Assembly (NCBI RefSeq): GCF_051903065.1
Contig: NZ_CP178439.1
Source of the DNA: Escherichia coli
GTDB taxonomy: Bacteria > Pseudomonadota > Gammaproteobacteria > Enterobacterales > Enterobacteriaceae
Length of the DNA stretch: 64,000 bases
Reading direction: 5' to 3' (one strand)
Made by a program: the position numbers. Shown here one piece after another: positions 36,001 through 39,000 of the stretch. How positions within the stretch are numbered: position 1 is the stretch's first letter; every line of letters starts with the position of its first letter.

Positions 36001-39000
36001 CGAGCATTGAGATAAAGAACACCTGCATAAAGTAGTCATTCTGTATATCAACACATTTAGAACGCAACTCATGAATCTTCTTGGGATTATAGATATCCAC
36101 TGTACCATTCAGAAAAGTCACTTTTTCACCGGCATCGTAAATACCATAGTCAATATCATTTGTATCATATTCACGAATTACATTGGAATCACCGTCCAAG
36201 ACCGCAGAAAAAAACCTCTCCCATGTAATTTCCTTTCCGAGTGTACGCGGAACCAAAAAACTACCTGGACGTGTTTCCACTTCAAAAGCTAAATCAGCGG
36301 CTGTACTAAATCCTTTCCCAAATAGGCGACGCTGGAGAAGAGGAGTCCCAGTTTGATATGCAGAAGATCCATGCACAGGCAATAACATTAAAAATGCACG
36401 GTAACTACGAATAAGCGAAATCTCAGTGCGGAAAAGTTTACCGAGTAAGCTACGAGTTAAATTATCAGATTCTGACATGTGCTGATTGTCCTTGCGCCAT
36501 TACAATTGTTCAAATCTTCAACATGGATTTTTTGTTAGGTGTTCGGTAGGGTGAAAAGTAACTTTTAGTATTTTCTTAAGGCTTGAATAAGCCTTAAATC
36601 TATCCCTTCAACCACACCGCTTACTTGTAACACTTTTTAACCAAACTGACCAGAATTTTATCAAAATTTCTTCGCATGCTAACGAAATGTGAAGCGATTA
36701 AAAAAAAACCTAAATCCAGCCCCTCCCAACGTTGGATTAGAATAACGACGTCTTTCACTGACCGTCATAAACTGACATTTTTACTTTTCATCAACCTCAT
36801 GCTTACATAGGATCACTAAACAAAGAAAAGTGACCCTATGAATACCTCACATAGGGTCACTTATGTTTGAAAAGTGACCCTATGTAATGTCGTCATAGGG
36901 TCACTTTTTATAAAAGTGTCACTATGGACAAAGTTCCATAGGGTCATTTTTTTTGGAAAAGTGGCACTAGATATATGTATAACTTTAATAGAGCAATGCA
37001 CATTATCAAAAGCAATAATCCACAATGGTCATTCCCTCAAAAGTAACTTTAGAGGGTAGCGATGGAAGTGAGGCTAAACTCGCTGTTACTGTTTCTGAAG
37101 GCCCCTCCCGAATGGGGGAAACAGCGAGTGCATTACATCTGTTCAATTCCCTCATCAAAGAGCATTCAAAAATCTTCTGTTCGTGAAAAAAAACGGAAAT
37201 TTCCTCCGGTATAGTAATTTCACATCAGGAGGCGTCATGAGTAATTCGAATCTTATAAGTTCTATAGAGCTAACACGTAAAAATTTACGTGCTCAGATTG
37301 AAGGTTTGCGTGTTGAGGCTGAAGATCTCATTACAAAATACTGGATCAAGTGGAAGGAACGAAACCACCAAGAGATTAACCTTACCCGACATAGCAAAGT
37401 TCCAAAGAGGGAGTATCTGGGTTCTTACGCACCAAAAGTTGAGCTAATTGGTAATGCCAGAAAAGTAACGATCACTTGGCATCAGTTCAGCCCTTATAAA
37501 ACAAGAGCGCCTAGTCACATGTCAAAACGGGTGCAACCAATGAAAAGTGGAAAATATTCTAAGAACTGTTTTGTAAACCATGCCAGCTGGGAATACGAAA
37601 TGATTTCTGAAACGGAAGCATTGCTGGAGCCTTACAGAGAAATGCTTGAGCTCTATCATTCAGCATATATCGAACTTGGACGAAAAATCCGTCAATACTC
37701 AAAAACTAAGGTGGCACAATGACCGACGCAATTATCACGGACAATGAGCGTATTAACATTGAACCAAAAGATGTAATGGTAAAAGGTTCAAATAAAAAGC
37801 AAGGCGTAAACGCTCAAACTTCTACTCAACGTAGACCAGAGCACCAGGGTATGGCCAAAGTTATTATTAACCCCGGCACCCCAGATTTTAACCGGTTTTT
37901 AACTGCCAGAAATGGAGCAGTCATCAGAGGTTTTGATGATGTGAGTATCGCTATTTCCTCTCTCTTTAAAACGGTTGATGCAGTTAAACATCCTGACCTT
38001 GTTCAGGCTATTCAGGATTGGTTCAACGAGCTGCATGAAGAAAACAATAAGATGAAAGAAAATCTTGTTGCTTATATTAAGTCAATTGAGTTCGACAAGA
38101 ATGACTCATTCATGTCATCAACTCAGTTTGTACCTTTCAGTTTTGAACCAGTACAACTCAACTTCAATAACCACAACACCATGAGGTTTTACAAGTACAT
38201 CTTCGAGATGAACCAGCTCATGAACACAATGTATGAGTACAACTCATTGGGTTTACTGGCTGTAAGCGACTATCCGGTTATGTCTCACAACATTATAAAG
38301 AGTATTAATTTATATGTTGAGAATGTGAAAAAGACTCTGAATGTTTCTCGCCGTAAGGATGGGCCATACAGTCCAGCAGAGTTCATCACCAAAGTAATGC
38401 AATATAAAAGTGTGCAGGCATACATTGCAGCCGAACTGTCAGGCAAACGTCGATAAGGTATGATGATGAATTTCAGGGCGCTGTATTTATGTATTAAACG
38501 GATTTTGGGGATATTCTCATCTCAGGAGAATGATGCAACCTCTGTAATGATTGAGGATATATCAAGCCTCTCTCCTTTTGCGCAGATTCTAGGAGATCAG
38601 AAGTACACTGTTCCTGATCATCCAAATCCAGAAGTCCTGAAATTCATCGAGTATCCAACTCGTCCGACGGGCATACAGACATTTAATGAACAGTCAATCC
38701 TGTCTCTGTATCGGGAAAAGCTGCACTCAATTTCAATGATGTTAGCTATCAGCGATAGCGACATCAGGGACGATGCATATACATTTACTAATTTAGTATT
38801 AAAGCCCTTGGTTGAATATGTTCGCTGGATACATCTTTTGCCAGCTTCCGAAAATCATCATCATAATGGTATTGGTGGGTTACTTTCTCACAGCCTGGAA
38901 GTGGCCATACTCTCTTTAAAAAATGCGCATCACTCAGAACTGAGACCAATCGGATATCAAGATGAAGAAGTAGTCCGTAGAAAAGTATATCTCTATGCTG

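What the first reader, a model, noticed from the sequence alone, without database searches (positions are those of the whole stretch)
36805..36970. Iteron-like array between the divergent transfer operons: candidate oriT or master operator
About eight copies of AAAAGTGACCCTATG, alternating in orientation, fill the region between the minus-strand regulator operon (start 36478) and the plus-strand relaxase operon (start 37183). The unit shares the half-site AAAAGTGAC with the dispersed palindrome, suggesting the same protein family binds both. Position next to a MOBH relaxase and coupling-protein operon is where an oriT and relaxosome accessory sites would be expected.
Basis: partly seen in the sequence, partly recalled or inferred. 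Interest (0 to 1): 0.65.

Follow-up and report, generated by a model that had tools for sequence, protein, structure and literature searches.

The report
IncHI plasmid oriT palindrome array
The repeats are real and form four tandem 34-bp palindromic protein-binding sites in the already-mapped transfer-origin region of IncHI resistance plasmids, so this is a known locus whose binding protein and nick site are still unproven.

Summary
Eight 15-bp units of AAAAGTGACCCTATG alternate in orientation at 36806-36971. They are best read as four ~34-bp palindromes (CATAGGGTCACTTTT-N3-5-AAAAGTGACCCTATG) with a 44-bp period.

The window is an IncHI2 plasmid, 100% identical to many R478-like plasmids. The array lies between the trhR/trhY activator operon and the traH(mobI)-orf245-traI-traG operon. 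Accessible papers place the R27 oriT next to traH/mobI there.

Between IncHI2 and IncHI1 the units are 93% identical, while the in-array spacers (35-41%) and flanks (37-43%) are near random and spacing is preserved. In five further lineages (MobI 54-32% identical) the same architecture persists. The outer half-site is lineage-specific and changes in concert in both arms and all copies. The module also occurs with mobI but without a relaxase or trhR.

Best explanation: an accessory-protein platform of oriT, bound by TraH/MobI and/or the next gene's product, which I found to have an AcaB-like fold. This platform would recruit the MOBH relaxase. A role as an operator or upstream activating site (UAS) for trhRY remains a live rival. 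The nick site is unknown. Nothing here is new in kind.

The parts
36806..36971 (.). The array: eight alternating 15-bp units forming four tandem palindromic sites with a 44-bp period.
   Evidence: The units are 93% identical between IncHI2 and IncHI1, while the in-array spacers are 35-41% identical.
36806..36840 (.). Palindrome 1 (R1-F1): CATAGGATCACTAAA-caaag-AAAAGTGACCCTATG. This is the most degenerate left arm.
36850..36884 (.). Palindrome 2 (R2-F2): CATAGGGTCACTTAT-gtttg-AAAAGTGACCCTATG.
   Evidence: 14 of 15 positions complementary.
36894..36926 (.). Palindrome 3 (R3-F3): CATAGGGTCACTTTT-tat-AAAAGTGTCACTATG. F3 carries a variant (G/T)CACTATG that is conserved by position in IncHI1 and Photorhabdus.
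36937..36971 (.). Palindrome 4 (R4-F4): CATAGGGTCATTTTT-tttgg-AAAAGTGGCACTAGA. F4 has the same sequence in IncHI2, IncHI1 and Photorhabdus.
36965..36985 (.). Junction motif CACTAGATATATGTATAACTT next to the last unit. TAGATATAT / TATGTAWA persists in most lineages, although their palindromes differ. It is a candidate nick or relaxase-core site; this is inference only.
   Evidence: Present in L011, L016, IncHI3 and L014; not recognisable in L013; not examined in L015.
36619..36662 (.). Left conserved block CTTACTTGTAACACTTTTTAACCAAACTGACCAGAATTTTATC. It contains an inverted copy of the F4-type half-site and is also present in the relaxase-less and trhR-less contig L013. It is a second candidate for a core oriT element.
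   Evidence: (pair I13). It lies inside the region that an oriTfinder prediction maps to.
36655..36682 (-). Predicted sigma-70 promoter of the trhR/trhY operon (TTAGCA-16-TAAAAT with an extended -10 TG). Prediction only.
   Evidence: the sequence is conserved in IncHI1.
36554..36566 (.). Copy of the dispersed palindrome AAAAGTAACTTTT, to the left of the array.
   Evidence: conserved in IncHI1, L011 and L012.
37039..37051 (.). Copy of the dispersed palindrome AAAAGTAACTTTA, between the array and traH.
   Evidence: A copy occupies the same position in all lineages examined.
37170..37236 (+). Conserved region upstream of traH (TTCGTGAAAAAAAA...GGTATAGT...AGGAGG). It is a probable activator-dependent H-operon promoter plus ribosome-binding site. 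No -35 match was found.
   Evidence: 75-79% identity; no sigma-70 consensus hit.
37237..37722 (+). traH, a MobI-family mobilisation factor of 161 aa. It is the prime candidate for the protein that binds the array.
   Evidence: Pfam MobI PF19456, E = 4.8e-22. NCBI names it MobI(A/C). The AF2 model has pLDDT 90.7 and no canonical DNA-binding fold.
37719..38456 (+). orf245, an AcaB-like predicted DNA-binding regulator with a strand-helix-helix at residues 46-85. It is the second candidate for the array-binding protein.
38460..41612 (+). traI, the MOBH relaxase (1050 aa).
   Evidence: TraI_2 domain in homologous loci.
35164..36478 (-). The trhR (35678-36478) and trhY (35164-35676) activator operon, divergent from the H operon.
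   Evidence: trhR annotation; their role as activators comes from PMC7366339.

Best explanation
The array is the accessory-protein platform of the IncHI origin of transfer. Each ~34-bp palindrome is bound by a dimer of a plasmid-encoded, lineage-specific DNA-binding protein made by the operon immediately downstream. The most likely binder is TraH/MobI, possibly together with, or instead of, the AcaB-like Orf245.

The four sites are spaced 44 bp apart, about four helical turns, so the dimers sit on roughly one face of the DNA. There they can oligomerise into a nucleoprotein complex. This complex recruits the MOBH relaxase TraI to a nearby sequence that is conserved regardless of lineage. Candidates for that sequence are the TAGATATATGTATAAC junction at 36968-36985 and the block at 36619-36662. 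TraI would nick one strand there to start transfer.

Because the platform lies between the divergent trhRY and traH promoters, its occupancy probably also tunes both promoters.

What is shown: the anatomy, the conservation, the covariation, the synteny with mobI, and the protein folds. What is inferred: which protein binds, the recruitment step, the nick position, and any regulatory effect.
For: 1. Location. The array is in the intergenic region directly upstream of a Pfam MobI gene, followed by a MOBH relaxase and a coupling protein. In R27, SXT, IncA/C and Rts1 the experimentally defined oriT lies directly next to mobI (PMC10838148; PMC5587640).
2. Selection on the units. Between IncHI2 and IncHI1 the units are 93% identical, the in-array spacers 35-41% and the flanks 37-43%. 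Spacer lengths and the 20/24-bp step are preserved.
3. Covariation. Five further lineages (MobI 54, 42, 39, 33 and 32% identical; L011, L013, IncHI3, L016, L014) keep three or more tandem ~33-bp palindromes with a period of about 44-57 bp at the same place; L015 (38%) has only two, 56 bp apart. Their outer half-sites are different and lineage-specific. A left arm matches the right arm of its own site at 80% and of another site in the same lineage at 81%, but of other lineages at only 49.5% (maximum 58.7% in 2000 draws).
4. Link to mobI rather than trhRY. Contig L013 has six palindromes plus mobI plus split orf245 pieces, with no relaxase and no trhR next to it.
5. Published genetics in IncC. 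MobI self-associates, binds the relaxase C-terminal domain, and together with that domain sets oriT specificity; the HD catalytic domain does not. TraH of R27 is named there as the MobI-like factor (bioRxiv 10.1101/2025.04.21.649884).
6. The array occurs only together with this intergenic region. The array alone and the whole region each hit the same number of plasmid records, 1427.
Against: - No binding, nicking or mobilisation data for the array are available to me. The primary R27 oriT paper (Lawley 2002) is not held, so I do not know whether the minimal oriT includes the array.
- An oriTfinder prediction for IncHI2 pGS32-1 lies 1746-1997 bp upstream of the relaxase start. That maps to about window 36463-36714, left of the array. 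It may be a BLAST hit truncated at the non-conserved stretch, but that is not shown.
- The MobI model has no recognisable DNA-binding fold, only a coiled-coil hairpin plus a small sheet.
- Orf245, with its AcaB-like fold, is an equally well-placed candidate binder, and it points toward transcriptional control.
- Natural variants with only 4 units exist in plasmids typed as conjugative, so half of the array is dispensable for persistence. That typing is a prediction, not an assay.
- The outward-facing residues of the Orf245 strand differ between IncHI1 and IncHI2 although the units are the same, so no simple protein-DNA covariation could be read.
Confidence: 0.55

Rival explanations
1. The array is a transcriptional operator or upstream activating site (UAS), not a transfer-origin element. 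The AcaB-like Orf245, made from the TrhRY-activated H operon, binds the palindromes upstream of the trhRY promoter and activates it. This closes a positive feedback loop like AcaB-AcaCD in IncC plasmids. oriT function would reside in the neighbouring conserved blocks.
For: - AcaB activates the promoter of the master-activator operon and is itself activated by it (PMC8373056).
- The array sits about 125-290 bp upstream of the predicted trhR -35.
- TrhR and TrhY are the activators of the tra operons (PMC7366339).
- The oriTfinder prediction falls to the left of the array.
- orf245 is syntenic with the array in all lineages examined, including L013, where it appears as split pieces.
Against: - In L013 the array is present although no trhR/trhY operon lies beside it.
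- Published data say the R operon is not regulated by HtdA and is silenced by H-NS. No feedback from an H-operon product has been reported in the papers I could read.
- The outward-facing residues of the Orf245 strand differ between IncHI1 and IncHI2 although the units are the same.
- The two roles are not exclusive. Relaxosome accessory proteins commonly autoregulate; this rests on established knowledge of F TraY/TraM and R388 TrwA.
Confidence: 0.22
2. The inverted repeats act as DNA hairpins on the transferred single strand. One of them is the recognition hairpin of the MOBH relaxase, with nic beside it inside or at the edge of the array. The other copies act as spare or termination sites.
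For: - Both strands of 36795-36995 fold into three strong hairpins, F1/R2, F2/R3 and F3/R4 (dG -40.8 and -38.5 kcal/mol, z = -8.4 and -8.0).
- The only biochemically studied MOBH relaxase, from the gonococcal genetic island (GGI), needs a 32-nt inverted repeat and cuts 3 nt 5' of it. [quoted passage not shown]
- A conserved motif abuts the last unit.
Against: - If only the hairpin structure mattered, the unit sequence would drift freely. Instead it is 93% conserved between IncHI1 and IncHI2 and identical among copies.
- The loops, which are the spacers, keep their length but not their sequence. That fits both readings.
- Four near-identical hairpins would give ambiguous nicking.
- The GGI relaxase belongs to a MobI-independent branch.
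Confidence: 0.12
3. The array is a replication iteron array or a partition centromere.
For: Only the general look of a short-period repeat array. Centromeres bound by RHH proteins can have alternating repeats; this is general knowledge.
Against: - The units alternate in orientation rather than being direct repeats.
- No rep or par gene is adjacent. The flanking genes are trhR/trhY and traH-traI-traG in every lineage.
- The unit does not recur elsewhere in the 64-kb window beyond chance.
- The module travels with mobI in L013.
Confidence: 0.02

Closest known systems
oriT of the IncHI1 plasmid R27 (Tra1 region, between the trhR/trhY operon and the traH-traI-traG operon; Lawley et al. 2002, J Bacteriol 184:2173)
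   Same: It is the same locus by homology. The IncHI1 plasmid pHCM1 has all eight units in the same places (93% unit identity) and the same flanking genes. Accessible papers state that the R27 oriT lies directly next to traH/mobI.
   Different: This window is IncHI2 (R478-like), and the flanking non-repeat DNA has diverged to about 40% identity. I could not read the primary paper, so I do not know whether the minimal R27 oriT contains the array or what that paper said about the repeats.
oriT-mobI module of IncA/C plasmids and SXT/R391 elements (MOBH12)
   Same: The oriT lies immediately upstream of mobI, is rich in inverted and direct repeats, and shows natural copy-number variation in its repeats. 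MobI is essential and determines oriT specificity together with the relaxase C-terminal domain. The nick site is unknown there too.
   Different: The IncA/C oriT has short inverted repeats of 4-7 bp and two or three overlapping 14-bp direct repeats within about 150 bp that overlap the mobI promoter. Here there are four long 34-bp palindromes at a strict 44-bp period, about 230 bp upstream of the traH promoter region. In addition, an AcaB-like gene is fused into the same operon.
AcaB-AcaCD positive feedback loop of IncC plasmids
   Same: Orf245 has the AcaB fold. It is encoded in an operon activated by a two-subunit master activator (TrhR/TrhY, as AcaC/AcaD), and it sits opposite that activator's operon.
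   Different: There is no detectable sequence similarity. In IncC, acaB lies near traN, far from oriT and mobI. Binding of Orf245 to this array or to the trhR promoter is untested.
Arrays of accessory-protein sites in classical oriTs (F TraM sbmA-C and TraY sites; R388 TrwA sites; RP4 TraK wrapping). From established knowledge, not tested here.
   Same: There are multiple phased sites for a small oligomerising protein next to nic, often doubling as operators for the adjacent tra promoters.
   Different: The relaxase family (MOBH, HD-domain) and the accessory protein family (MobI) are different. The binding proteins here are not demonstrated.

Membership tests
oriT of MOBH1 conjugative elements (oriT-mobI module) | It lies immediately upstream of a mobI-family gene. 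| tested here: met
   traH (37237-37722) matches Pfam MobI PF19456 with E = 4.8e-22. The array lies 266 bp upstream of its start codon. The same arrangement is found in 8 further lineages or loci.
oriT of MOBH1 conjugative elements (oriT-mobI module) | A cognate MOBH relaxase and a coupling protein are encoded on the same element. | tested here: met
   A MobH family relaxase is at 38460-41612 and TraD at 41612-43696. MOB-suite typing is MOBH / MPF_F.
oriT of MOBH1 conjugative elements (oriT-mobI module) | It acts in cis: a cloned fragment is mobilised by the parent plasmid. | not testable with these tools
   This needs a mating assay. It has been reported for the homologous R27 intergenic region, according to secondary citations; the primary paper is not held.
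oriT of MOBH1 conjugative elements (oriT-mobI module) | It contains the nic site cleaved by TraI. | not testable with these tools
   No nic consensus exists for MOBH1; attempts in IncA/C failed. Only candidates can be named: 36968-36985 and 36619-36662.
oriT of MOBH1 conjugative elements (oriT-mobI module) | The repeats co-vary with the specificity factor across lineages. | tested here: met
   The outer 11 positions of the palindromes show 2-4 Watson-Crick pair types each. Complementarity is 81% within a lineage and 49.5% between lineages. The lineages have MobI at 32-86% identity.
Replication iterons | Direct repeats in one orientation, next to a rep gene. | tested here: not met
   The units strictly alternate in orientation. 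The neighbouring genes are trhR and traH.
Partition centromere (parC/parS type) | Adjacent to a parA/parM-parB/parR operon. | tested here: not met
   No par genes lie within 9 kb on either side. Synteny is with mobI in every lineage.
AcaB-type regulator with its operator | The regulator has the AcaB fold. | tested here: met
   [not shown]
AcaB-type regulator with its operator | The regulator binds upstream of, and activates, the master-activator operon. | not testable with these tools
   This needs EMSA or ChIP plus reporter fusions. The residues of the putative DNA-reading strand do not track the array units between IncHI1 and IncHI2, which is inconclusive.
Known RNA families | Reaches an Rfam gathering score. 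| tested here: not met
   Only sub-threshold hairpin matches were found (best 30.7 bits against a gathering score of 83).

The most novel reading that the evidence does not exclude
The four palindromes are a dual-purpose switch. MobI and the AcaB-like Orf245 co-occupy them. The same nucleoprotein complex both licenses relaxase loading at oriT and drives positive feedback on the divergent trhRY master-activator operon, coupling the decision to transfer with DNA processing. The oriT specificity of the whole MobI family is written in the outer 9-11 bp of such palindromes, so helper-element compatibility could be predicted or re-engineered from sequence.
Probability: 0.2. Interest if true: 0.55.

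Novelty: already known. Interest (0 to 1): 0.3.

Why it matters
IncHI2 and IncHI1 plasmids are major carriers of mcr-1, mcr-9, ESBL genes and multidrug resistance in typhoid, and their transfer starts at this locus. For MOBH1 relaxases no nick site and no accessory-protein binding site has been defined biochemically. This analysis gives concrete, testable targets:
- four palindromes whose outer half-sites should set specificity;
- two lineage-independent conserved blocks as nick candidates;
- two candidate binding proteins.

It also suggests that IncHI plasmids carry an unrecognised AcaB-like regulator inside the relaxase operon. None of this changes the classification of the locus, which is the known IncHI oriT region.

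Tried and rejected
- The primary literature on the R27 oriT (Lawley 2002, Sherburne 2000, Lawley 2003) and on AcaB (Hancock 2020) is not held. The minimal oriT and the AcaB operator sequence therefore could not be compared.
- NCBIfam gave nothing for TraH, TrhR or TrhY and only a far-sub-threshold match for Orf245; Pfam gave nothing for TrhR or TrhY; PHROGs gave only families of unknown function.
- Profiles of MobI and Orf245 have no sequence match among PDB chains.
- The intergenic region has no IHF consensus site.
- Rfam returned only sub-threshold hairpin noise.
- The IncC reference R55 could not be fetched by accession, so the IncC oriT was compared from the paper's description only.
- I tried to read protein-DNA covariation from the putative RHH strand of Orf245. 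The result was inconclusive, because IncHI1 and IncHI2 differ in the protein but not in the units.
- I rejected iterons and a centromere on orientation and gene context, an RNA element on the Rfam result and the position upstream of both predicted promoters, and chance on the shuffles.
- The minus-strand promoter-like hit at 37009-36982 lies in non-conserved DNA, and I treated it as spurious.
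Full report
**Observation.** The sequence at 36806-36971 contains eight 15-bp units related to AAAAGTGACCCTATG, in strictly alternating orientation. Three are perfect, two have one mismatch, one has two, and the two outermost have four. At up to three mismatches the motif hits six times in the array and twice elsewhere in the 64-kb window. The expected count for the whole window is 1.79, and no shuffle reaches eight. Centre-to-centre steps alternate about 20 and 24 bp. The clearest description is therefore four tandem palindromes, CATAGGGTCACTTTT-N3-5-AAAAGTGACCCTATG, starting at 36806, 36850, 36894 and 36937 with a 44-bp period. 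The array covers 166 bp of a roughly 758-bp intergenic region, so it does not fill it. The first plus-strand gene starts at ATG 37237 behind AGGAGG, as NCBI annotates it, not at GTG 37183.

**Context.** The intergenic region is 100% identical to hundreds of 210-300 kb enterobacterial plasmids typed IncHI2A / MOBH / MPF_F, and the array stretch (36800-36990) is 99.5% identical to R478. To the left, on the minus strand, are trhR (35678-36478) and trhY (35164-35676). These two proteins jointly activate the tra operons of IncHI plasmids (PMC7366339). To the right, on the plus strand, are traH, a 245-aa ORF, the MOBH relaxase traI, and the coupling protein gene. TraH matches Pfam MobI with E = 4.8e-22. 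Accessible papers state that in R27, as in SXT, IncA/C and Rts1, the oriT lies directly next to the mobI-type gene (PMC10838148; PMC5587640). A recent preprint names TraH of R27 as the MobI-like factor required by MOBH11 relaxases. The locus is therefore the known IncHI oriT region.

**Conservation.** An alignment with three IncHI1-type plasmids shows all eight units in the same places and orientations. Identity to IncHI2 is 93% in the units, 35-41% in the spacers inside the array, and 37-43% in the adjacent flanks. Spacer lengths are kept. The last two forward units carry a variant (GGCACTA) that is conserved by position in IncHI1, IncHI2 and a Photorhabdus plasmid. Copy number varies in nature:
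- 4 units in two pig E. coli plasmids, after a 90-bp deletion of about two periods;
- 6 units in the Photorhabdus plasmid and in a Cronobacter remnant;
- 9 units in pGD27-70.

**Covariation across lineages.** I used MobI homologs at decreasing identity to fetch the DNA upstream of each. A metagenomic plasmid (L011, 54% identity), contig L013 (42%), an IncHI3 Klebsiella plasmid (39%), L016 (33%) and L014 (32%) each carry three or more tandem palindromes of about 33 bp at the same position, spaced about 44-57 bp apart; L015 (38%) has only two, 56 bp apart. The inner CTTTT...AAAAG is nearly constant. The outer 9-11 bp are lineage-specific: GGGTCAC, GTGTTAC, TGGTAYC, GTTTAAC, CTCAAAC, ACCTGAC. In a set of 30 sites, a left arm is complementary to the right arm of its own site at 80% of positions. 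It matches the right arm of another site in the same lineage at 81%, and right arms from other lineages at 49.5% (sd 3%, maximum 58.7% in 2000 draws). Positions 1-11 show two to four Watson-Crick pair types each. This is the signature of symmetric sites for a dimeric, lineage-specific DNA-binding protein. It is also compatible with hairpins whose sequence matters.

**Which protein binds.** Contig L013 is informative. It has six palindromes followed by mobI, with no relaxase downstream and no trhR upstream. The array therefore travels with mobI, not with the trhRY operon. Published IncC genetics show three things about MobI: it self-associates, it binds the relaxase C-terminal domain, and with that domain, rather than the HD catalytic domain, it sets oriT specificity. 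That fits a variable array read by a variable MobI, and a conserved nick region read by the conserved catalytic domain.

The confident TraH model (pLDDT 90.7) is an antiparallel coiled-coil hairpin with a small sheet. It matches only generic coiled coils and prefoldin-like folds, and it has no canonical DNA-binding fold.

**Other conserved elements and the nick site.** Two non-repeat blocks are conserved beyond the IncHI1/IncHI2 pair.
- The first is the junction after the last unit, CACTAGATATATGTATAAC (36965-36985). Its core, TAGATATAT / TATGTAWA, is recognisable in L011, L016, IncHI3 and L014, although their palindromes differ. It is not recognisable in L013, and I did not examine L015.
- The second is CTTACTTGTAACACTTTTTAACCAAAC...GAATTTTATC (36619-36662). 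It overlaps a predicted trhR promoter. It is also present in L013, which has no trhR, and it contains an inverted copy of the F4-type half-site.

An oriTfinder prediction published for an IncHI2 plasmid lies 1746-1997 bp upstream of the relaxase start. That maps to about 36463-36714, which covers the second block but not the array. It may be a BLAST hit of the R27 entry truncated where conservation collapses at about 36715, but I cannot show that. The only biochemically studied MOBH relaxase cuts 3 nt 5' of a 32-nt inverted repeat. Both strands of the array fold into three strong hairpins (z about -8). A nick at the edge of the array is therefore possible. The nick position remains unknown.

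**The dispersed palindrome.** AAAAGTNACTTTT occurs 13 times in the window at up to one mismatch, against 0.33 expected. One copy lies on each side of the array (36554 and 37039). A copy between the array and mobI is retained in all lineages, while the array units change. Only AAAAGT is common to both motifs across lineages.

**Verdict.** The array is a selected set of palindromic protein-binding sites in the IncHI oriT region, most likely the relaxosome accessory platform (confidence 0.55). An AcaB-type operator/UAS role is the main rival or an additional function (0.22), and a hairpin/nick role comes third (0.12). Iterons, a centromere, an RNA element and chance are rejected. The locus itself is already known, since the R27 oriT was mapped in this intergenic region. 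What the analysis adds is the cross-lineage covariation, the candidate nick blocks, and the AcaB-like fold of Orf245.

Noticed in passing
window 23588, 24489, 26582, 33494, 36113, 36554, 37039, 40462, 41900, 43630, 48532, 53581, 53707: The 13-bp palindrome AAAAGTNACTTTT occurs 13 times at up to 1 mismatch, against 0.33 expected. It lies both between and inside genes. Two copies sit 90 and 216 bp upstream of a long minus-strand operon of hypothetical genes. It is retained unchanged next to the array in plasmid lineages whose MobI is only 32-54% identical. The binding factor is unknown.
   Followed up: partly
[not shown]
   Followed up: partly
window 35164-35676 (-), TrhY residues about 131-155: TrhY ends with CEKC...(14 residues)...CPRC, a four-cysteine zinc-ribbon-like motif, and has a weak Pfam zinc-binding hit. 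From memory, this resembles the C-terminal zinc site of FlhC/AcaC-type activator subunits, so TrhR/TrhY might be remote analogues of FlhDC/AcaCD. I did not test this.
   Followed up: no
L013 (Logan ERR13348610 contig, 3345 bp), 457-714 and 958-1443: This short contig has six palindromes followed by mobI and two ORFs that correspond to a split orf245. It has no relaxase gene and no trhR. It may be a mobilisable element that borrows a helper plasmid's MOBH relaxase, like the MGIVchHai6-type islands described for IncC.
   Followed up: partly
L003 (NZ_CP122769.1), CP057732.1, L008 (pGD27-70), L007, L012: The array's copy number varies naturally: 4 units (a 90-bp deletion, window 36822-36911), 6 units, and 9 units (a 35-bp duplication of R4). 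The 4-unit plasmids are still typed as conjugative, but only by prediction.
   Followed up: partly
window 36624-36637 and 36957-36970: There is a long-range inverted repeat, CTTGTAACACTTTT / AAAAGTGGCACTAG. Its left arm lies about 170 bp upstream of the array and its right arm is the last unit, F4 (pair I13). A corresponding pair (GTAACACTTTT / AAAAGTGTTAC) occurs in L013 although its main units differ.
   Followed up: partly
window about 36463-36714: The oriTfinder-predicted oriT reported for an IncHI2 plasmid (PMC13055346) maps to this stretch, which is left of the array and overlaps the trhR start and its predicted promoter. Automated oriT annotation of IncHI2 plasmids may therefore miss the repeat array.
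   Followed up: partly
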